A stretch of 64,000 nucleotides of DNA, from the IMG/VR virus record IMGVR_UViG_3300022602_000001; one strand, 5' to 3'. This DNA is from a virus. Numbering within the stretch: position 1 is the stretch's first letter; every line of letters begins with the position of its first letter. The notes beneath the pieces are model-generated. The model was not told the origin of the DNA. It did no database searches and worked only from the letters and a program-made list of their open reading frames with translations. Shown here piece after piece: positions 5,862 through 27,129 of this stretch. A program made the position numbers and the translations under genes.

Positions 5862-5880
5862 AACAAACAAAAAAAAGGTC

Positions 5881-8184
5881 ATGCAAAAAAGTTACGTCCT
5901 TGTCAACACCATAGAATTGGCCCAGCAGATGACTCGTCACATTTTGGAGAACGACGTCATTGCATTTGACACGGAGACCACGTCCCTGAATCCAAGGAAG
6001 GGAGAAATTATAGGCTGGTCTATCTCTGCAGAGCCTGGAGTTGGGTACTATCTGCCAACAAAAATTTACCAAGACGGAGAACTGGTGGACGCTCTGATAG
6101 ACGGCCACTCTGCTCACGACATCTCAGTGAAGATGATCAAGATGCTGGTGGGCAAAAAAATAATTGGTCATAATTTTTCTTTTGACGTGAGATACGTCAA
6201 GAACTATTTTGGGGTGGACCTTCTGTCCTCTCTGTACGCGGACACCATTCTTTTGGTGCACACGGTGAACGAGGAGGGCGCTGGGTTTGGCACCAATTCC
6301 CCATTTGGCTTGAAGAGCATAGCAAAGTCCATACAGGAAGAGCTCGGGCTTGACCTTGACAAGGAGGCAAACGAGGAGCAGGTTGAGCTCAAAAACTCAA
6401 TAAAGCAGAACGGCGGGTCTGTGACAAAGGACGACTACGAAATATGGAAGGCAGACATAGACGTTCTTTCAAAGTATGCTGCTGCGGACACGGATCTAAC
6501 GCTTAGAATTTACAACCATTTCATAAAGGAACTGTACAGACAGGATCTTCAGGACTTCTTCTTTGAATCGGAGGTGATGCCCCTCTACAAAGAGGTCACC
6601 ATACCAATGGAGGAGAGGGGGATAAAGCTCGACATGGACCTAATTGTCAGAACAAGGGATGAAATTTCTTTGTCCCTGGAGGAGTACAAAACAAAAGTTG
6701 TCAATGGGCTGATGGACCTTGCAGAGGTCAAGCACTGGATAATGACAAAAGCCGCAACTGCATTTCCTGCAAACAACAGGGGAGCTTTTGCAGTTGAACT
6801 GATAAAGCAGAGCGGACTGGAGTTTCCAAAGTCGGAAAAGACGGGAAAGTATAACGTGTCCAACGCAAACATACACCGCATGGAGGAGAGCAGCGTAAAG
6901 CAATTCCTCCTGCACGGAGACAAAGAAATTTTGGACAGCGACACAGTTACAAAAGTTCAGTTGAAGCTGTGGAGGCAGTCCAACGACGACACTTGGTTCA
7001 ACATTCAGTCCAAGGACCAGATGGGGGAGATTGCGTTCAAGGCTCTTGGAATAAAGTACAAGTCCGTTACAAAGACCGGGAAGCCCCAGTTTGACGACGA
7101 CGTGATTCAGGAAATAGCAGATAAGGAGGAGTGGGCAAAAAACTTAAGAATATACAACAGGCTGCTGAAGATAAAGTCCACCTACGTGGACAGGTTTCTA
7201 GAGGGCCAAGAGGATGGTAGGTACTACTTCAGCTACAAGCAGCACGGCACAGTTTCGGGAAGGTATGGATCGGACGCCCAACAGCTCCCAAGAACCAAGG
7301 AGGAGGGGGACGACGATCCTATTGTGGTGGAGTACAACAATCGAGTGAGAGCATTTTTTGTTGCTGAAGAAAACAACGTATTCATAGACGACGACTACAC
7401 CTCGCTGGAGCCGGTGGTTTTCTCCCACGTGTCTGGAGACGACGGCCTAAAGGACATTTTCAGAAATGGGTGGGACTTCTACTCAACAATTGCAATAAAA
7501 ACAGAGAAGTTGAACGAGTACTCCCCAGACAAGAAGGCGGACAACTACCTTAGAAAGCTGGCTCCAAAGCTAAGAAACAAGGCAAAGGCGTACTCGCTGG
7601 GAATTCCTTACGGAATGTCCCCCTACGCCCTTGGAAAGACCCTTGAAATATCCACCAAAGAGGCAAAAAAGCTGGTTGACGGCTATCTGGGAGGATTTCC
7701 AAAGCTGAAGAAGTGGATGGAAGACTCAACTGCCTACGCAAAGGAGCACGGGTACATAAAGACTCAGGTCGGGCGAATAAGGCACCTACCAAAGGTGAAG
7801 GAGATATACACTGCAGTTGGAGACGCTCTTTTGGACTGGGACCTTAGAAAGCAGCTGTCGTACCAGTTCGGAGAGGAGAAGATTAAAAACTTGTACAGGG
7901 ACTACAAGAATGGCCTGAACAACTCTCTCAACGTTCAGATACAAGGACTGGCTGCTTCCATTGTAAATCGAGCGGCCATAGCAATAAACAGAGAGTTCAA
8001 GAGGATGGGAATCGACGGGTGGGTGTGCGCTCAGGTGCACGACCAATTGCTGATCGAGGTCCTTGAGAGCCAGCGCAAGGAGGCAGCCCAAATTGTCCAG
8101 GACAAGATGGAGAACACGACAAAGTTGGACATAGACCTGATCGCAGTTCCACAGTTCTCAAAGAACATGAGGGACGGCCACTAG
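5881..8184 (+). CDS. polA: Family A DNA polymerase with 3'-5' exonuclease
   Basis: Exo motifs DTETT, HNFSFD, YAAAD; TVSGR; motif A DYTSLE; motif B R..AKAYSLGIPYG; motif C QVHD. Confidence 0.93.
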   Translation: MQKSYVLVNTIELAQQMTRHILENDVIAFDTETTSLNPRKGEIIGWSISAEPGVGYYLPTKIYQDGELVDALIDGHSAHDISVKMIKMLVGKKIIGHNFSFDVRYVKNYFGVDLLSSLYADTILLVHTVNEEGAGFGTNSPFGLKSIAKSIQEELGLDLDKEANEEQVELKNSIKQNGGSVTKDDYEIWKADIDVLSKYAAADTDLTLRIYNHFIKELYRQDLQDFFFESEVMPLYKEVTIPMEERGIKLDMDLIVRTRDEISLSLEEYKTKVVNGLMDLAEVKHWIMTKAATAFPANNRGAFAVELIKQSGLEFPKSEKTGKYNVSNANIHRMEESSVKQFLLHGDKEILDSDTVTKVQLKLWRQSNDDTWFNIQSKDQMGEIAFKALGIKYKSVTKTGKPQFDDDVIQEIADKEEWAKNLRIYNRLLKIKSTYVDRFLEGQEDGRYYFSYKQHGTVSGRYGSDAQQLPRTKEEGDDDPIVVEYNNRVRAFFVAEENNVFIDDDYTSLEPVVFSHVSGDDGLKDIFRNGWDFYSTIAIKTEKLNEYSPDKKADNYLRKLAPKLRNKAKAYSLGIPYGMSPYALGKTLEISTKEAKKLVDGYLGGFPKLKKWMEDSTAYAKEHGYIKTQVGRIRHLPKVKEIYTAVGDALLDWDLRKQLSYQFGEEKIKNLYRDYKNGLNNSLNVQIQGLAASIVNRAAIAINREFKRMGIDGWVCAQVHDQLLIEVLESQRKEAAQIVQDKMENTTKLDIDLIAVPQFSKNMRDGH

Positions 8185-22326: not shown

Positions 22327-22500
22327 CTAAAAATAAAATGTGAAGACTAAAAAAATAAACTTTTTTCATTCATCCGCATTGTATACTTTTACTCTATAAT
22401 AGCAACTAATAGATCTTTGAAAATAAAGACAATAAACTTACACGTAAGGGATTGTGAGCCAGCCGAAAGGTTGCAATTACTCACTTTCCCAGGAAATTTT

Positions 22501-22608
22501 GATGAATAGCAAGGACCAGCGTTACTTCGCGTGCATGGTGCACAATTTTTATGTTAAAAAAATACAGAGGTTCAATTCCTCCTGAAACGCTACCAATTTT
22601 CTTTCATC
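22501..22608 (+). ncRNA. Scaffolded tRNA-like RNA, copy 1 (Y-RNA-like candidate)
   Basis: GATGAA/TTCATC and AGCGTT/AACGCT stems enclosing D-like, anticodon-like and GAGG-TTCAATT-CCTC T-arm hairpins. Confidence 0.6.
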
Positions 22609-22614
22609 TAAATC

Positions 22615-22687
22615 GTTCCCGTCGTCTAATGGTCAGGACAGCCCCCTTTCACGGGGCAAATTTCGGTTCGAGTCCGTGCGTGGAACA
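22615..22687 (+). tRNA. tRNA-Glu(TTC)
   Basis: GCCCC-CTTTCAC-GGGGC; GGTTCGAGTCC. Confidence 0.85.
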
Positions 22688-22696
22688 CAAAAATTC

Positions 22697-22770
22697 GGAG
22701 TAGTGGTTGAATGGTTTACAACACCGGCTTGTCGCGCCGTGAGGTGGGGGTTCGAGTCCCCCTTATTCCG
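22697..22770 (+). tRNA. tRNA-Asp(GTC)
   Basis: CGGC-TTGTCGC-GCCG; GGGGG-TTCGAGT-CCCCC. Confidence 0.85.
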
Positions 22771-22787
22771 CCTTGACTTTTTTAAAC

Positions 22788-22864
22788 GTATTCGTATAGG
22801 CTCTGTCTCATAAACAGTTGAAACCTTAACAGGTTACATGAGAGTTCGATTCTCTCCGAATACA
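22788..22864 (+). tRNA. Atypical tRNA(CAT): no D-arm, long variable arm
   Basis: GTATTCG/CGAATAC; CTGT-CTCATAA-ACAG; GAGAG-TTCGATT-CTCTC. Confidence 0.65.
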
Positions 22865-22889
22865 CTCTGGACTTTTTGAAATAAAGACA

Positions 22890-23024
22890 TTAGTCATAGT
22901 AATAGAAAGCGTTTCATCGTGTGGGTTCGATTCCCATTTTTTGCGACTGCAAAAATAGCCAAATGGTTAAGGCACCAAATTCGTAATTTGTAAAACAAAC
23001 ACGCTCCTAAAATTTCTTGACTAA
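22890..23024 (+). ncRNA. Scaffolded circularly permuted tRNA-like RNA, copy 2 (Y-RNA/YrlA-like candidate)
   Basis: Order T-arm, loop-closed 7-bp acceptor (TTTTTGC-GACT-GCAAAAA), D-arm, anticodon-like arm (CGT), inside TTAGTCA/TGACTAA and AGCGT/ACGCT stems. Confidence 0.72.
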
Positions 23025-23759: not shown

Positions 23760-23785
23760 GTGGACTTTTTTGAAATTGGTCAATT

Positions 23786-24551: not shown

Positions 24552-24626
24552 GCTCTTGTAGCCCAATTGGAAGGAGGCAACAGACTTAGGATCTGTGCAG
24601 TATCAGTTTGAATTTGATCATGAGCA
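24552..24626 (+). tRNA. tRNA-Leu(TAG), short variable region
   Basis: ACAGA-CTTAGGA-TCTGT; GCTC/GAGC acceptor. Confidence 0.8.
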
Positions 24627-24718
24627 CTGAACTTTTTAAGCCACAACAAAAAACAATTCTCTAAAATTCAACATGGAGCAAGTCGTGCCTTTATATTTAT
24701 TCTAAAAAGCTTTGTCTC

Positions 24719-25180
24719 ATGGATAGAACATTTAAAACACTGAGCAACAGCGCAGTTGTGGATTTGGTGCCCTACACAAAGCAGTACATTGAAAATTTTC
24801 CCGATACTGAAATACTAATAGGGTGCGACTCTCAAAACAGAAAAACTGAGACCGTCTATGCAATAGTTGTTGGATTTTACAAGCCAGGAAAGGGCGCGCA
24901 TGTGGTGTACTCAAGATTCAAAAATCAAAGAGAGAAGGACAACGTGGGAAGGCTTTTGAACGAGGTGTGGAACTCAGTTCAGGTTGCTGAAGTTTTAAAA
25001 AATGAAGTTGGAATCCACACAAAGTGGATAGACATAGACCTAAATCCCGACCCCAAGTACAAGTCGAACGCGGCGCTGTCCAGCGCAGTGGGAATAGTAA
25101 CAGGAATGGGGTACAACGTCAGGCACAAGGGCAATTCTCCAATAATGACGTACGCAGCAGACTCTCTCGTAAAATTTTAA
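24719..25180 (+). CDS. RNase H-like YkuK (DUF458) family protein
   Basis: IGCDSQ, GKGAHV, RLLNEVW.S, IDIDLN, ADSL. Confidence 0.75.
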   Translation: MDRTFKTLSNSAVVDLVPYTKQYIENFPDTEILIGCDSQNRKTETVYAIVVGFYKPGKGAHVVYSRFKNQREKDNVGRLLNEVWNSVQVAEVLKNEVGIHTKWIDIDLNPDPKYKSNAALSSAVGIVTGMGYNVRHKGNSPIMTYAADSLVKF

Positions 25181-25236
25181 ATGGGGGCAATCCACCGTTC
25201 TTTGCATATAGATATTTATTAGAAAATATTTGTATC

Positions 25237-27129
25237 ATGGCCCAATTTAACATATCCAATCCCAACTATGGGTTCAGCGGAACCTCTTTGGTTGACGGAG
25301 GATATTCTTTGCACACACAACCATCTGAAAAAACCTCCGACAACTTTGGCCGTCAGAAGGTGACAATACACCAAAACGTCTACGAGGCTGACTTTGAGTA
25401 CGGCACGCAGCCCCTTCGCTGGGAAGTGCTAACAAACGGATCTGCTTCCGTTCAACAGGTGTCAAGCCTGGGAGGCGTAACAATGATAGTAGGAACAGGA
25501 TCTAACGACATGGTGGTGAGGCAGTCGAGGCCCTACCACAGGTATCAGCCGGGAAAGACAATGTACATGTCGTGCAATGCCAACTTTGGTGGCCCTGTAG
25601 TGGGAAACTACACGAGGGTTGGATTCTTTGACGACTCCAATGGAGTTTTTTTTGAGCAGAGCATACCCACAACAAACAATCCGTCTGGAATGTACGTGTG
25701 CGTGAGGACCGATGCGAGTCTTACGGGAAGCCTTCCAAGCACCGTAAAGGTACCTCTGAACCAGTGGAACGGAGACCAAAACATAATTCCAACTCTAAAC
25801 TGGTACAACGTTCAGATGCTGTGGATAGAGTTTGCTTGGTACGGAGCAGGAACGATAAGATTCGGAGTGACCATGAACAGCGAGCAGTACGTGCTTCACA
25901 CAATAAACACTGGAAACGTAGGCAACGGTCCGTGGGCAAGAACCGGAAACCTCCCTGTGAGGTACGAGAACAGAAACAGCGGATCATGGATACCTGCCAA
26001 CACCGTAGTGACGTCGTCCTTTGGAGACGGATCCTACTTTCAGCTGAGCGGGTCTGTAAGCGCATCATTTTACGTAACGTCTAGCACCAGCCTGGTGAGC
26101 ACAGCGGCGGTGAAGTACGTGACCACGGGCTCAACTCTGTACGGAACCTATCAGAACATAGCAACAACAATAAACGCCTCCTCTTCACAGTTTGGAATAG
26201 TGGCATCTGCCTCTTCTGGAATTCCGTCCCTCTTGCTGTCGGCCAGCTCTCCAGTGGGAAACAACGGTCTTGGTCTGAACTACACATACGCATCGGGCGG
26301 CCTGAGCCAGTCGTTTGTGGCAATCACAGGGGGCACAACCCTAATCCACTACGGAGTGTCCGTTATAGTCGAAGGAGGCCGTGATGCTCAGAGAGGATTC
26401 ACCTACTCGTACGGAATAAACCCAACTACACCGAGAGGAAGAACAGTTCCAGCCGGATCGTTCAGGTACCCAGTACTGTCGATTCAGAACCGTGTAATGG
26501 GCACACAAGAGTACACAGGATCCATATCGTCAGCAACCACCTCCAGCATAACGACTGCGGGAAATCCATGGAGTGCGAACCAGTGGGTTGGAAAGTGCGT
26601 GTACGTGAGCGGAAGTGCAATAAACGGAAGGATACTGAGCAACACGACAAACACGATCAACTTTGTCGACGTGGTGACGGGGCTGGCCCAGACCGCATCA
26701 ATAGCAACAAGCGCAGCAACAAACTCATTCACTATAGGGCTTATAAACAGAGGGCAAATACTTCCCCTGCAGTTCATCCTTTCCGCGGACAACATCTGTA
26801 CTGTGGAGTTCATAGCAAGCGCTCCTGCGAATCCTGTGGTGCTGACCGGGTCGAACTTCGTTCCAATGACTCAGTTGGGATCCAATTACTCTTTTGCCAC
26901 AAGGGACATATCTGCAACGGGAATCAACTCAGGAAGCGGGGAGGTGGTTTACGCCTTCGTGTCACCAGCAGGAGGATCTGGCCTTCAGGTTATCGACCTG
27001 AATCAGTTCTTCCCTCTTTACAACACCATCCGCGGAAACATTCCTGACATTCTGACCGTTGCAGTGAGCACAGCAGCGACTGCGTCTAGCATAGGTTGCC
27101 ACCTGGTTGGACAGGAAGCAATGTCTTAG
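25237..27129 (+). CDS. Putative virion structural protein (Ser/Thr/Gly-rich, beta-rich)
   Basis: Start likely ATG 25237 after GATATTTATT motif; YQPGK and WYGAG.IRFG motifs seen in large-phage virion proteins. Confidence 0.65.
   Translation: MAQFNISNPNYGFSGTSLVDGGYSLHTQPSEKTSDNFGRQKVTIHQNVYEADFEYGTQPLRWEVLTNGSASVQQVSSLGGVTMIVGTGSNDMVVRQSRPYHRYQPGKTMYMSCNANFGGPVVGNYTRVGFFDDSNGVFFEQSIPTTNNPSGMYVCVRTDASLTGSLPSTVKVPLNQWNGDQNIIPTLNWYNVQMLWIEFAWYGAGTIRFGVTMNSEQYVLHTINTGNVGNGPWARTGNLPVRYENRNSGSWIPANTVVTSSFGDGSYFQLSGSVSASFYVTSSTSLVSTAAVKYVTTGSTLYGTYQNIATTINASSSQFGIVASASSGIPSLLLSASSPVGNNGLGLNYTYASGGLSQSFVAITGGTTLIHYGVSVIVEGGRDAQRGFTYSYGINPTTPRGRTVPAGSFRYPVLSIQNRVMGTQEYTGSISSATTSSITTAGNPWSANQWVGKCVYVSGSAINGRILSNTTNTINFVDVVTGLAQTASIATSAATNSFTIGLINRGQILPLQFILSADNICTVEFIASAPANPVVLTGSNFVPMTQLGSNYSFATRDISATGINSGSGEVVYAFVSPAGGSGLQVIDLNQFFPLYNTIRGNIPDILTVAVSTAATASSIGCHLVGQEAMS

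What the first reader, a model, noticed from the sequence alone, without database searches (positions are those of the whole stretch)
22501..23024. Two RNAs share a covarying scaffold that displays different tRNA-like cargo, one circularly permuted
Seen: E1 (22501-22608) reads GATGAA-TAGCAA-GG-ACC-AGCGTT-ACTTCG...AACGCT-A-CC-AATTTTCT-TTCATC. E2 (22890-23024) reads TTAGTCA-TAGTAA-TAG-AA-AGCGTT-TCATCG...ACGCT-C-CTA-AAATTTCT-TGACTAA. The outer stems differ in sequence but still pair, while the internal loop (TAGYAA / AAWTTTCT) and the AGCGT/ACGCT helix are conserved, as expected for a protein-binding site. E1 holds D-like, anticodon-like (GTT) and T arms, with the scaffold replacing the acceptor. 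E2 holds a T-arm, a perfect 7-bp acceptor closed by GACT, a D-arm and an anticodon-like arm (CGT), with the scaffold replacing the variable arm. Known: bacterial YrlA Y RNAs have a T-acceptor-D order on a Ro60-binding stem, and permuted tRNA genes exist in some algae and archaea. Inference: a modular family of Y-like tRNA mimics or decoys, or a permuted tRNA-Thr matured by ligation. No Ro60/TROVE gene is in this window.
Basis: partly seen in the sequence, partly recalled or inferred. Interest (0 to 1): 0.85.

Follow-up and report, generated by a model that had tools for sequence, protein, structure and literature searches.

The report
Phage Y-RNA-like handles carrying tRNA bodies
The two elements are real small-RNA genes of a large, uncatalogued phage family in which one conserved base-paired "handle" carries different tRNA bodies (one in scrambled order), and because this family sits beside phage genes for the RNA-binding ring protein Ro60 it is most likely a new branch of the known Y RNAs.

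Summary
E1 (22501-22608) and E2 (22890-23024) share a three-helix closing stem with different cargo. E1 carries a tRNA-like body in normal order. E2 carries a complete circularly permuted tRNA, which ARAGORN reads as tRNA-Thr(CGU) once rotated.

Both belong to a large phage family:
- A covariance model built from E1 relatives found 52 hits at E<=0.01 in related viral loci and none in 32 control loci.
- 21 of 23 modelled pairs show compensatory changes.
- The invariant parts are UAGUAA/UGGUAA, GUUAC(U/A)UCG and ..UUCU/..UUCC. The AGCGU/ACGCU helix itself covaries.
- The same handle carries normal-order tRNAs, permuted tRNAs with or without an anticodon arm, or no cargo.

The family is tied to Ro60 (TROVE) genes:
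- Sister phages carry a Ro60 gene about 1.1 kb downstream of the E1 orthologue.
- Arrays of handle RNAs end 100-400 nt upstream of Ro60 in several lineages.
- 19 of 56 loci found with a handle-only pattern hold TROVE.
- Both near-complete genomes among the ten further contigs tested have it.

This window has no TROVE. Rfam YrlA does not match E1 or E2, and the published Ro60 motif (GNCGAA) is absent.

Verdict: a new variant of phage Y RNAs. Ro60 binding is inferred, not shown. Maturation by ligation is disfavoured. Earlier notes of this scan describe the same family on other genomes.

The parts
22501..22608 (+). E1: handle RNA with a normal-order tRNA-like body (mini D hairpin, anticodon-like hairpin, T arm)
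   Evidence: Scores 111.7 bits, E 3e-26, with family model R1. Orthologues lie at the same place, before tRNA-Glu, in sister phages L052, L007, L017, L041 and L002.
22501..22506 (+). E1 P1, 5' strand (GAUGAA); pairs with 22603-22608
   Evidence: In the 9-sequence alignment A4, P1 is 100% paired and 4 of its 6 pairs show compensatory change. In A5 all 6 do.
22507..22512 (+). E1 5' internal loop UAGCAA. The U is bulged and AG pairs with CU at 22601-22602.
   Evidence: Across the family, AG pairs with CU in 37 elements and GG with CC in 4.
22518..22529 (+). E1 P3 5' strand AGCGUU (pairs with 22586-22591), overlapping the conserved junction motif GUUACUUCG (22521-22529)
   Evidence: P3 covaries across the family. 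The motif reads UUACUUCG in 37 of 52 hits, UUACAUCG in 7 and UUUCAUCG in 5.
22531..22581 (+). E1 cargo: mini D-like hairpin 22531-22543, anticodon-like hairpin 22545-22563 (loop AUGUUAA, GUU at 22553-55), T arm 22567-22581 (loop UUCAAUU)
   Evidence: Read from the sequence. The D-like and T helices keep pairing in relatives. The anticodon-like loop differs between close relatives: GUU, UGG, GCA, CAA, and 8-nt loops with UAGG.
22595..22608 (+). E1 3' internal loop AAUUUUCU (22595-22602) and P1 3' strand (22603-22608)
22890..23024 (+). E2: handle RNA with a complete circularly permuted tRNA; the handle leaves from the variable-loop position
   Evidence: Scores 39.6 bits, E 3e-8, with R1, which was built without it. 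After rotation, ARAGORN calls tRNA-Thr(CGU). A syntenic orthologue lies at L052 10255-10392, with changed P1, P3, acceptor stem and anticodon UGU.
22890..22919 (+). E2 5' half of the handle: P1 22890-96, UAGUAA 22897-902, P2 UAG 22903-05, P3 AGCGU 22908-12, motif GUUUCAUCG 22911-19
   Evidence: RNAalifold on 11 permuted members recovers P1, P2 and P3 de novo.
22921..22991 (+). E2 cargo: T arm 22921-37; acceptor 3' strand 22938-44; loop GACU 22945-48; acceptor 5' strand 22949-55; U8 A9 at 22956-57; D arm 22958-73; anticodon arm 22975-91 (loop UUCGUAA, CGU at 22982-84)
   Evidence: In A6, 27 of 32 predicted pairs show compensatory change. U33, A37 and A38 are invariant while the anticodon varies. 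As encoded, Rfam tRNA gives only 24 bits, below the gathering score of 29.
22992..23024 (+). E2 3' half: A/C-rich linker 22992-23000, P3' ACGCU 23001-05, P2' CUA 23007-09, loop AAAUUUCU 23010-17, P1' 23018-24

Best explanation
E1 and E2 are two genes of a widespread family of small RNAs in phage tRNA gene clusters. The family is built on one conserved 'handle'.

The handle is formed by the 5' and 3' ends of the transcript:
- P1, 5-7 bp.
- A bulged U followed by two pairs (RG with CY).
- An asymmetric internal loop, UAA opposite about six A/U-rich bases.
- Helices P2 and P3.
- The invariant junction GUUAC(U/A)UCG.

Different bodies are plugged into this handle:
- tRNA bodies in normal order. 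E1 is a reduced one.
- Complete tRNAs in circularly permuted order, with the acceptor stem closed by a loop. E2 is one, reading as Thr CGU.
- YrlA-like bodies without an anticodon arm.
- Nothing at all.

The family is encoded next to, or in the same genome as, phage Ro60 (TROVE plus vWA) genes. I therefore read these RNAs as Y RNAs. On this reading the handle is the Ro60-binding module and the tRNA body is the effector module. The body would present a tRNA shape, with a realistic anticodon loop, to tRNA-recognising enzymes or nucleases. This could serve RNA surveillance or repair of the phage's tRNA supply, or act as a decoy.

Shown: the structure, the family, its modularity, and the gene linkage to Ro60. 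Inferred: Ro60 binding to the handle, and the role of the cargo. In this window the RNAs stand without a Ro60 gene, so the partner must lie elsewhere in the phage genome or come from the host.
For: Family and structure:
- Homologues were found by pattern scans.
- Model R1 gives 52 hits at E<=0.01 in related loci and none in 32 control loci.
- 90% of cells pair, against 60% in shuffles, and 21 of 23 pairs show compensatory change.
- AG/CU versus GG/CC covariation in the loop.
- RNAalifold recovers the handle plus the permuted cloverleaf, with 27 of 32 pairs compensatory.

Modularity:
- The cargo classes are listed.
- 11 of 14 rotated permuted cargos are called as tRNAs, with 7 different anticodons.

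Ro60 link:
- The sister phages' 513-aa TROVE gene lies inside the tRNA cluster, about 1.1 kb downstream of the E1 orthologue.
- It carries a DxSGS MIDAS motif.
- Its best solved relatives are the Thermus phage phiLo Ro60, which binds phage Y-like RNAs (9L5Y/9KOP, E 4e-18), and Xenopus Ro60 (PMC12135203).
- Every R1 hit in 35 TROVE loci lies on the TROVE strand, and arrays of them end 100-400 nt upstream of the gene in several lineages.
- A TROVE-blind handle pattern gave 56 complete handles, 19 with TROVE in the same locus of 15 kb or less. For comparison, 86 of 50,697 GenBank phage records hold the gene at all.
- 6 of 10 further contigs hold TROVE elsewhere, including both that are at least 97% complete.
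- In the GenBank phage csAssE-Sib, three handle RNAs lie directly upstream of the 'Ro sixty-related protein'.
- A scaffolded element in L105 is hit below threshold by Rfam YrlA.

Published Y RNAs are modular, and both tRNA-arm orders are known: YrlA has T-acceptor-D, while Yrn1 has the T arm last (PMC4201824).
Against: - No TROVE gene lies in this 64-kb window, by tblastn or by a profile search.
- At the syntenic slot after tRNA-Leu(UAG), the TROVE gene and tRNA-Leu(UAA) of the sister phages are missing.
- The rest of this genome could not be read.
- The handle lacks the published Ro60-contact motif GNCGAA(N)G / CGAA.
- Rfam YrlA does not match E1, E2, L013 or L055.
- No binding or expression data exist.
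- Handle RNAs, tRNA arrays and TROVE all sit in the same gene clusters, so part of the linkage could be shared location rather than partnership.
- In L105 a terminator-like hairpin separates the RNA array from TROVE.
Confidence: 0.65

Rival explanations
1. The handle is a leader-trailer processing stem for tRNA genes. It pairs the flanks of a precursor so that host nucleases (RNase III, E, P or Z) release the embedded tRNA. E1 and E2 would be unusual or decayed precursors, and the Ro60 linkage would be incidental to living in tRNA arrays.
For: Several cargos are full-scoring tRNAs with 6-7 bp acceptor stems whose G1 is the G of UUCG (L118 4767-4839 at 72.8 bits; L119 5813-5884; L105 7423-7495). 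In GenBank record OR575929 two such elements are annotated as tRNA-Tyr and tRNA-Lys.
Against: Many members have no cargo at all (L006 twice, L073, L091, L099, L118 7833, and others). Many cargos have only a 2-bp acceptor stub or, like E1, none. In permuted members the handle leaves from the variable loop, where removing it would split the tRNA. The invariant loop nucleotides are not what a double-strand nuclease needs.
Confidence: 0.12
2. E2 and its class are true permuted tRNA genes, matured as in red algae and some archaea. The handle would be cut out, the ends ligated into a circle, and the acceptor loop then opened by RNase P and 3' trimming, giving a normal tRNA-Thr(CGU).
For: After rotation the body is a complete tRNA with a 7-bp acceptor stem, U8, GG in the D loop, U33 and A37. 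In two relatives the acceptor loop even encodes G-CCA (L105, L118). A sister record has an Rnl2-type RNA ligase.
Against: The handle is not a bulge-helix-bulge motif: its loops are 6 and 8 nt, not two 3-nt bulges separated by 4 bp. The same handle flanks normal-order and empty members. RtcB is absent from 5 related records, including ones 100% and 97% complete. That 100% complete record also lacks the Rnl1 and Rnl2 ligases. To my knowledge no bacterial splicing endonuclease is known; preprint 10.1101/312249 makes the same point.
Confidence: 0.05
3. The handle is the core of an RNA machine unrelated to Ro60. It could be a new small self-cleaving ribozyme, or the binding site of another protein or RNA of the tRNA island such as GOLLD-type RNAs, with the variable bodies as passengers.
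For: About 20 invariant nucleotides sit in loops and junctions of a three-helix stack, as in small ribozymes. GOLLD RNAs lie inside the same arrays in three lineages (277-288 bits). This window has handle RNAs but no TROVE.
Against: No Rfam ribozyme or other family matches at E<=10. TROVE enrichment around handle RNAs is very strong. GOLLD is present in only some lineages.
Confidence: 0.08

Closest known systems
YrlA, the bacterial and phage Y RNA-like A family (Rfam RF02553; Chen et al. 2014, PMC4201824; structure preprint 10.1101/312249)
   Same: The 5' and 3' ends pair into a long stem with an asymmetric internal loop. A tRNA-like module follows in the order T arm, closed acceptor stem, D arm, which the authors call 'circularly permuted tRNA'. 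A YUAY-type sequence (here UUAC) follows the inner helix. The genes sit beside Ro60. A partner RNA without a tRNA part also occurs (YrlB).
   Different: Rfam YrlA gives no match to E1 or E2. The GNCGAA(N)G motif is absent; UAGUAA, GUUACUUCG and UUCU are conserved instead. E2-class members keep a full anticodon arm, which YrlA lacks, and the handle leaves from the variable loop rather than the anticodon stem. One handle serves several cargo topologies. The genes lie in multi-copy arrays inside tRNA clusters. No Ro60 gene is in this window.
Deinococcus radiodurans Yrn1 (as described in PMC4201824)
   Same: As in E1, the tRNA-like arms are in the normal order, with an anticodon-like arm between D-like features and the T arm, and the Ro60-binding stem takes the place of the acceptor.
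   Different: I compared with the paper's description only, not by sequence. E1 carries the phage handle motifs and a 5-bp, 3-nt mini D hairpin.
Thermus phage phiLo Ro60 with Yrl1/Yrl2 (PMC12135203; PDB 9KOP, 9L5Y)
   Same: A phage-encoded Ro60 with Y-like RNAs encoded just upstream. It is the closest solved relative of the sister phages' TROVE protein.
   Different: The Yrl RNAs were identified by a CGAA motif in a large bulge and are not described as carrying tRNA bodies. The protein is only a distant relative (E 4e-18, 68.8 bits).
Circularly permuted tRNA genes of Cyanidioschyzon merolae and Thermofilum (cited in 10.1101/312249)
   Same: The 3' half (T arm and acceptor 3' strand) is encoded upstream of the 5' half. 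The acceptor stem is at first a closed hairpin, and the transcript ends pair.
   Different: Those are cut at a bulge-helix-bulge motif and ligated. Here there is no such motif, no linked endonuclease or RtcB, and the closing stem is a conserved module shared with non-permuted and empty RNAs.
Mycobacterium smegmatis YrlA (Chen 2014, as summarised in 10.1101/312249)
   Same: It has a 7-bp closed acceptor stem like E2. It is cut by RNase P, trimmed, and given CCA. This is a precedent for opening the E2 acceptor loop.
   Different: It has no anticodon arm. Processing of E2 is untested.

Membership tests
YrlA (Rfam RF02553) | Match to the covariance model at or above the gathering score of 69 bits | tested here: not met
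   No YrlA match to E1 or E2 even at E<=10, nor to the handle RNAs of L013 and L055 at E<=1. Classical-looking elements in TROVE contigs score 32-45 bits. One handle RNA, L105 7573-7648, scores 33.8 bits over its tRNA-like part.
YrlA (Rfam RF02553) | tRNA-like module in the order T arm, closed acceptor stem, D arm, closed by the 5'/3' stem | tested here: met
   E2 has this order plus an extra anticodon arm. E1 does not: it has the normal order.
YrlA (Rfam RF02553) | 5' motif GNCGAA(N0-1)G, proposed as the Ro60 contact (PMC4201824) | tested here: not met
   E2 has UUAGUCA-UAGUAA. E1 has GAUGAAUAG, which only resembles the motif, and the P1 part of that stretch covaries freely in relatives.
Y RNA (functional class: Ro60 partner RNA) | Encoded next to, or in the same genome as, a Ro60/TROVE gene | tested here: inconclusive
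   Met for the family: sister phages about 1.1 kb away, 19 of 56 unbiased loci, and 6 of 10 further contigs, including both near-complete ones. Not met inside this window. The rest of the genome is not available.
Y RNA (functional class: Ro60 partner RNA) | Long stem formed by the 5' and 3' ends, with a conserved internal loop or bulge, plus a separate variable module | tested here: met
   P1, loop, P2 and P3 are supported by covariation. The cargo varies.
Y RNA (functional class: Ro60 partner RNA) | Physical binding to Ro60 | not testable with these tools
   Needs EMSA or co-immunoprecipitation.
tRNA (Rfam RF00005) | Cloverleaf with a free acceptor end, scoring at or above 29 bits | tested here: not met
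   As encoded, E2 scores 24 bits and E1 has no hit. Only after in-silico rotation does ARAGORN call E2 as tRNA-Thr(CGU). The acceptor is a closed hairpin and no CCA is encoded.
Permuted tRNA genes (algal/archaeal type) | Bulge-helix-bulge motif formed by leader and trailer, with splicing endonuclease and ligase | tested here: not met
   The handle loops are 6 and 8 nt with a 2-3 bp P2, not a 3-nt bulge, 4 bp and a 3-nt bulge. RtcB is absent from 5 related records and ATP-dependent RNA ligases appear in only 2 of 5. Host enzymes are unknown.

The most novel reading that the evidence does not exclude
E2-class RNAs are working two-piece tRNAs. RNase P would open the 7-bp acceptor hairpin, as shown for M. 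smegmatis YrlA. The 3' end would then be trimmed and given CCA. The handle duplex would hold the two halves together in the place of a long variable arm. The phage would thereby make chargeable tRNAs, or nuclease-resistant spare tRNAs, that carry a built-in Ro60-binding tag. They would carry real anticodons: Thr, Ile, Cys, Ser, Lys and Phe in different phages.
Probability: 0.12. Interest if true: 0.9.

Novelty: new variant of a known kind. Interest (0 to 1): 0.62.

Why it matters
Y RNAs and Ro60 are conserved from bacteria to humans, yet what the tRNA-like module of bacterial Y RNAs does is still open. This phage family offers several things.

- It shows a different handle sequence for a divergent Ro60 clade.
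- It shows that the module is exchangeable. The cargo ranges from nothing, through YrlA-like bodies, to complete tRNAs in normal or permuted order.
- In those tRNA bodies the anticodon-loop framework is conserved while the anticodon varies.

These points make the question testable. One can ask which anticodons are carried, and whether the RNAs are cut, charged, or targeted by anticodon nucleases.

The family also has practical consequences. Some 'tRNA' annotations in phage genomes are probably handle-embedded RNAs, for example tRNA-Tyr and tRNA-Lys of csAssE-Sib. An Rfam model for the family is missing.

Tried and rejected
- **Rfam.** Apart from a sub-threshold tRNA match on E2 and a chance-level plastid UTR match antisense to E1, no known family, ribozymes included, matches E1 or E2 at E<=10.
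- **Own genome.** No whole genome is held. E2 is not in the viral contig collection. I therefore could not look for TROVE outside the window.
- **The 701-aa ORF at 25024-27129** as a hidden Ro60. It has no Pfam hit, is rich in Ser, Thr and Gly, and gives no profile hit. Rejected.
- **My first search patterns** demanded AGCGTT, and so wrongly suggested that this helix is conserved. The model search showed that it covaries.
- **Plain tRNAs.** Many pattern hits were ordinary tRNAs, in which AGCG is the D-stem 3' strand plus G26, or coding DNA. These were discarded.
- **crAss001.** An earlier scan note says the family occurs there. In the first 50 kb I found only weak hits driven by the tRNA part, without the handle motifs. 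Not verified; the second half was not examined.
- **Hammerhead reading** of GAUGAA / CUGAAAC in E1. Rejected because GAUGAA is P1 and covaries.
- **Bulge-helix-bulge reading** of the handle. Rejected on geometry.
- **Metagenome and bacterial-genome scans.** Not run. A handle pattern specific enough for those collections could not be written.
Full report
**Observation**

The window holds a phage tRNA island, with 17 ARAGORN tRNAs and further Rfam tRNA hits between 20.4 and 24.6 kb, all on the + strand.

Each is closed by an outer stem: GAUGAA/UUCAUC in E1 and UUAGUCA/UGACUAA in E2. Next comes an internal loop, UAGYAA on the 5' side and AAWUUUCU on the 3' side. A 2-3 bp helix and the helix AGCGU/ACGCU follow.

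- E1 then holds a 5-bp hairpin with a UGG loop, a hairpin with the loop AUGUUAA, and a T arm with the loop UUCAAUU.
- E2 holds a T arm, a perfect 7-bp acceptor helix closed by GACU, U8-A9, a D arm with GG, and an anticodon arm with the loop UUCGUAA.

Folding the single sequences is not by itself convincing (z -1.4 and -1.9). Apart from a sub-threshold tRNA match on E2 and a chance-level plastid UTR match antisense to E1, no Rfam family matches either element at E<=10. As encoded, E2 gets only 24 bits from the tRNA model.

**Homologues**

A pattern from the shared 5' half found true relatives in uncultured viral contigs, among chance hits in coding DNA. All relatives lay in tRNA clusters on the tRNA strand. 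Two further patterns added more, along with a set of classical-looking elements.

A covariance model, R1, was built from nine E1-like sequences. It found E2 at 39.6 bits although E2 was not in the model. It also found the E2 orthologue in the closest sister contig (L052 10255-10392), at the same place after tRNA-Asp. In all it gave 52 hits at E<=0.01 in family and TROVE loci, and none in 32 unrelated control loci.

On the 51 distinct hits:
- 90% of modelled cells form pairs, against 60% after shuffling and 38-45% with slid partners.
- 21 of 23 pairs show changes on both sides.
- P1 shows this at 6 of 6 pairs and P3 at 5 of 6.

That alignment is fitted to the model, so I also ran RNAalifold on a plain MAFFT alignment of 11 permuted members. 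It recovered P1, P2, P3, the T stem, the acceptor, the D stem and the anticodon stem. Of 32 predicted pairs, 27 have compensatory change.

**Anatomy of the family**

The AGCGU/ACGCU helix that looked conserved in the window covaries widely. Variants include ACAGUU/AACUGU, AGAGU/ACUCU, GUGU/ACAC, AGUCU/AGACU and GCCU/AGGC.

The truly constant parts are three:
- UAGUAA (32 of 52 hits) or UGGUAA (8).
- GUUAC(U/A)UCG directly after P3 (49 of 52).
- ..UUCU or ..UUCC before the 3' strand of P1.

AG goes with CU in 37 elements and GG with CC in 4. The loop therefore begins with a bulged U and two further pairs. An A/C-rich linker usually precedes the 3' strand of P3.

The cargo falls into classes:
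- Normal-order tRNA bodies with a true D arm and an acceptor stub of 2-7 bp. Some score as full tRNAs, for example L118 4767-4839 at 72.8 bits.
- E1-like bodies with a mini D hairpin.
- Permuted bodies with T arm, closed acceptor, D arm and anticodon arm, as in E2.
- Permuted bodies without an anticodon arm, as in L013, L024, L102, and L105 7535-7676.
- Cargo-less RNAs of about 70-90 nt.

When the permuted cargos are rotated in silico, ARAGORN of 14 as complete tRNAs. The anticodons are Thr CGU (the window), Thr UGU, Ile UAU, Cys GCA, Ser UGA, Lys CUU and Phe GAA. In this class U33, A37 and A38 are invariant while the anticodon varies.

**Link to Ro60**

The elements with the same junction motif but another outer stem all lie in contigs with a TROVE gene. 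They are hit below threshold by Rfam YrlA, either directly or in an adjacent copy.

Two of the first five records tested that carry the UAGUAA handle (L007 and L031) hold a 513-516 aa TROVE gene. tblastn places it inside the tRNA cluster in L017, L025, L048, L041 and L002, directly after tRNA-Leu(UAG) and about 1.1 kb downstream of the E1 orthologue. The protein has the DxSGS MIDAS motif. Its best solved relatives are the Ro60 of Thermus phage phiLo and Xenopus Ro60. The phiLo protein binds two phage Y-like RNAs encoded upstream of its gene and forms complexes with host PNPase (PMC12135203).

Taking 35 viral loci that encode relatives of this protein, every R1 hit lies on the TROVE strand. Arrays of two to five handle RNAs end 100-400 nt before the gene in several lineages. 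Examples are L117, L118, L119, L105, L113-115 and L124.

A TROVE-blind pattern for the handle returned 80 loci:
- 56 have a complete handle.
- 19 of those hold TROVE within the locus of 15 kb or less.

Of ten further contigs, six hold TROVE elsewhere, including both that are at least 97% complete. The four negatives are 15-62% complete. For scale, TROVE relatives occur in 86 of 50,697 GenBank phage records.

In the GenBank phage csAssE-Sib, three handle RNAs lie directly upstream of the annotated 'Ro sixty-related protein'. Two of them are annotated as tRNA-Tyr and tRNA-Lys. A 634-kb uncultured phage has a cargo-less one 400 nt upstream of its TROVE gene.

**This window**

There is no TROVE gene in the 64 kb, either by tblastn with the sister protein or by a profile of 12 phage TROVE proteins against all six frames.

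In the sister phages the order is tRNA-Leu(UAG), TROVE, tRNA-Leu(UAA), a 153-aa ORF, then an RNase H-like gene. Here tRNA-Leu(UAG) at 24552-24627 is followed directly by the RNase H-like gene at 24719-25180 (PF04308). The TROVE segment is thus absent at the syntenic site.

The phage genome is larger than the window, and I could not read the rest. Handle RNAs lie far from TROVE in several large genomes, so a distant gene is plausible but unproven.

**Comparison with what is known**

Chen et al. 2014 described YrlA RNAs beside Ro60 in more than 250 bacteria and phages. Those RNAs have a T arm, a closed acceptor stem and a D arm, a YUAY sequence at the start of the variable region, and a 5' motif GNCGAA(N)G. 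Yrn1 of D. radiodurans has the other arm order (PMC4201824). The structure preprint calls YrlA a circularly permuted tRNA with a closed acceptor and no anticodon loop. It also reports that M. smegmatis YrlA, with a 7-bp acceptor stem, is cut by RNase P and given CCA (10.1101/312249). Jumbo-phage TROVE proteins with a tRNA-like partner are mentioned in PMC7824862.

The general kind is therefore known. The following features are not described in the papers I could search:
- The handle itself (UAGUAA, GUUACUUCG, UUCU), which lacks the CGAA motif.
- Its use as a common socket for several tRNA topologies.
- Complete anticodon arms with varied anticodons.
- The multi-copy arrays inside tRNA clusters.

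Earlier notes of this scan describe the same family on other genomes. I reached the structure and the Ro60 link before reading them. Their claim about crAss001 I could not verify in the first 50 kb of that genome.

**Rivals**

- A processing stem for tRNA precursors fits the members that carry full tRNAs. It does not fit the cargo-less members, E1, or the permuted members.
- Maturation of E2 by cutting and ligation lacks its defining parts. There is no bulge-helix-bulge motif. RtcB is missing from five related records, two of them near complete. One complete record has neither RtcB nor Rnl1 or Rnl2.
- A new ribozyme, or a partner other than Ro60, cannot be excluded, but nothing points to either.
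- The most novel reading left open is that RNase P opens the E2-class acceptor hairpin. This would give a two-piece, chargeable tRNA that carries the handle as an extra arm.

**Verdict**

E1 and E2 are members of an uncatalogued phage Y-RNA-like family. Ro60 binding and the role of the tRNA bodies remain to be shown.

Noticed in passing
L117 3519-3933; L118 5913-6328; L119 6489-6905: Full-length GOLLD RNAs (277-288 bits, gathering score 150) lie inside the same tRNA / handle-RNA / TROVE arrays in three phage lineages.
   Followed up: no
window 24552-25180: The sister phages' TROVE gene and tRNA-Leu(UAA) are missing here. tRNA-Leu(UAG) is followed directly by the conserved RNase H-like (PF04308, YkuK-type) gene.
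   Followed up: partly
window 25024-27129: An ORF of 701 aa (probably about 630 aa from the internal Met), rich in Ser, Thr and Gly. It has no Pfam match and no homologue in any fetched sister locus. It may be a structural protein.
   Followed up: partly
window 22416-22431 and 22875-22889: A repeated motif, UUUGAAA(A)UAAAGACA, precedes both elements. It abuts P1 of E2 and lies 70 nt upstream of E1. A similar UUUUGAAAU follows tRNA-Gly near 23765. It may be a spacer or processing signal of the array.
   Followed up: no
L105 7815-7836; L118 about 6545-6565: In two permuted members the acceptor loop reads G-CCA after the acceptor 3' strand, as if a discriminator base and a CCA end were encoded.
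   Followed up: no
L110 5892-6010 versus L107 5883-6001 and L109 5882-5999: Near-identical handle-embedded tRNAs differ in the anticodon loop: UUUUAAU against UUUUGGU. That is anticodon UUA instead of UUG, which would read the stop codon UAA.
   Followed up: no
L127 (OR575929.1 72756-72828 and 72901-72974): The GenBank tRNA-Tyr and tRNA-Lys of phage csAssE-Sib are embedded in handle RNAs directly upstream of its Ro60 gene and have shortened acceptor stems. The tRNA annotation may be misleading.
   Followed up: partly
L062 about 5876-5929 (- strand); L059 5470-5540: Two odd tRNAs turned up as chance pattern hits. One has a 17-nt stretch in place of the anticodon loop, possibly an intron. The other is tRNA-like with no anticodon arm.
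   Followed up: no
L055 7577-7637: A sub-threshold match to the freshwater-1 RNA motif (50.7 bits, gathering score 72) lies in the same tRNA cluster that holds five handle RNAs.
   Followed up: no
L058 (Halogranum tailed virus 1, 143,855 bp): An archaeal virus carries a TROVE gene and an element with the AGCGUUACUUCG junction followed by a T arm. Related RNAs therefore reach haloarchaeal viruses.
   Followed up: no
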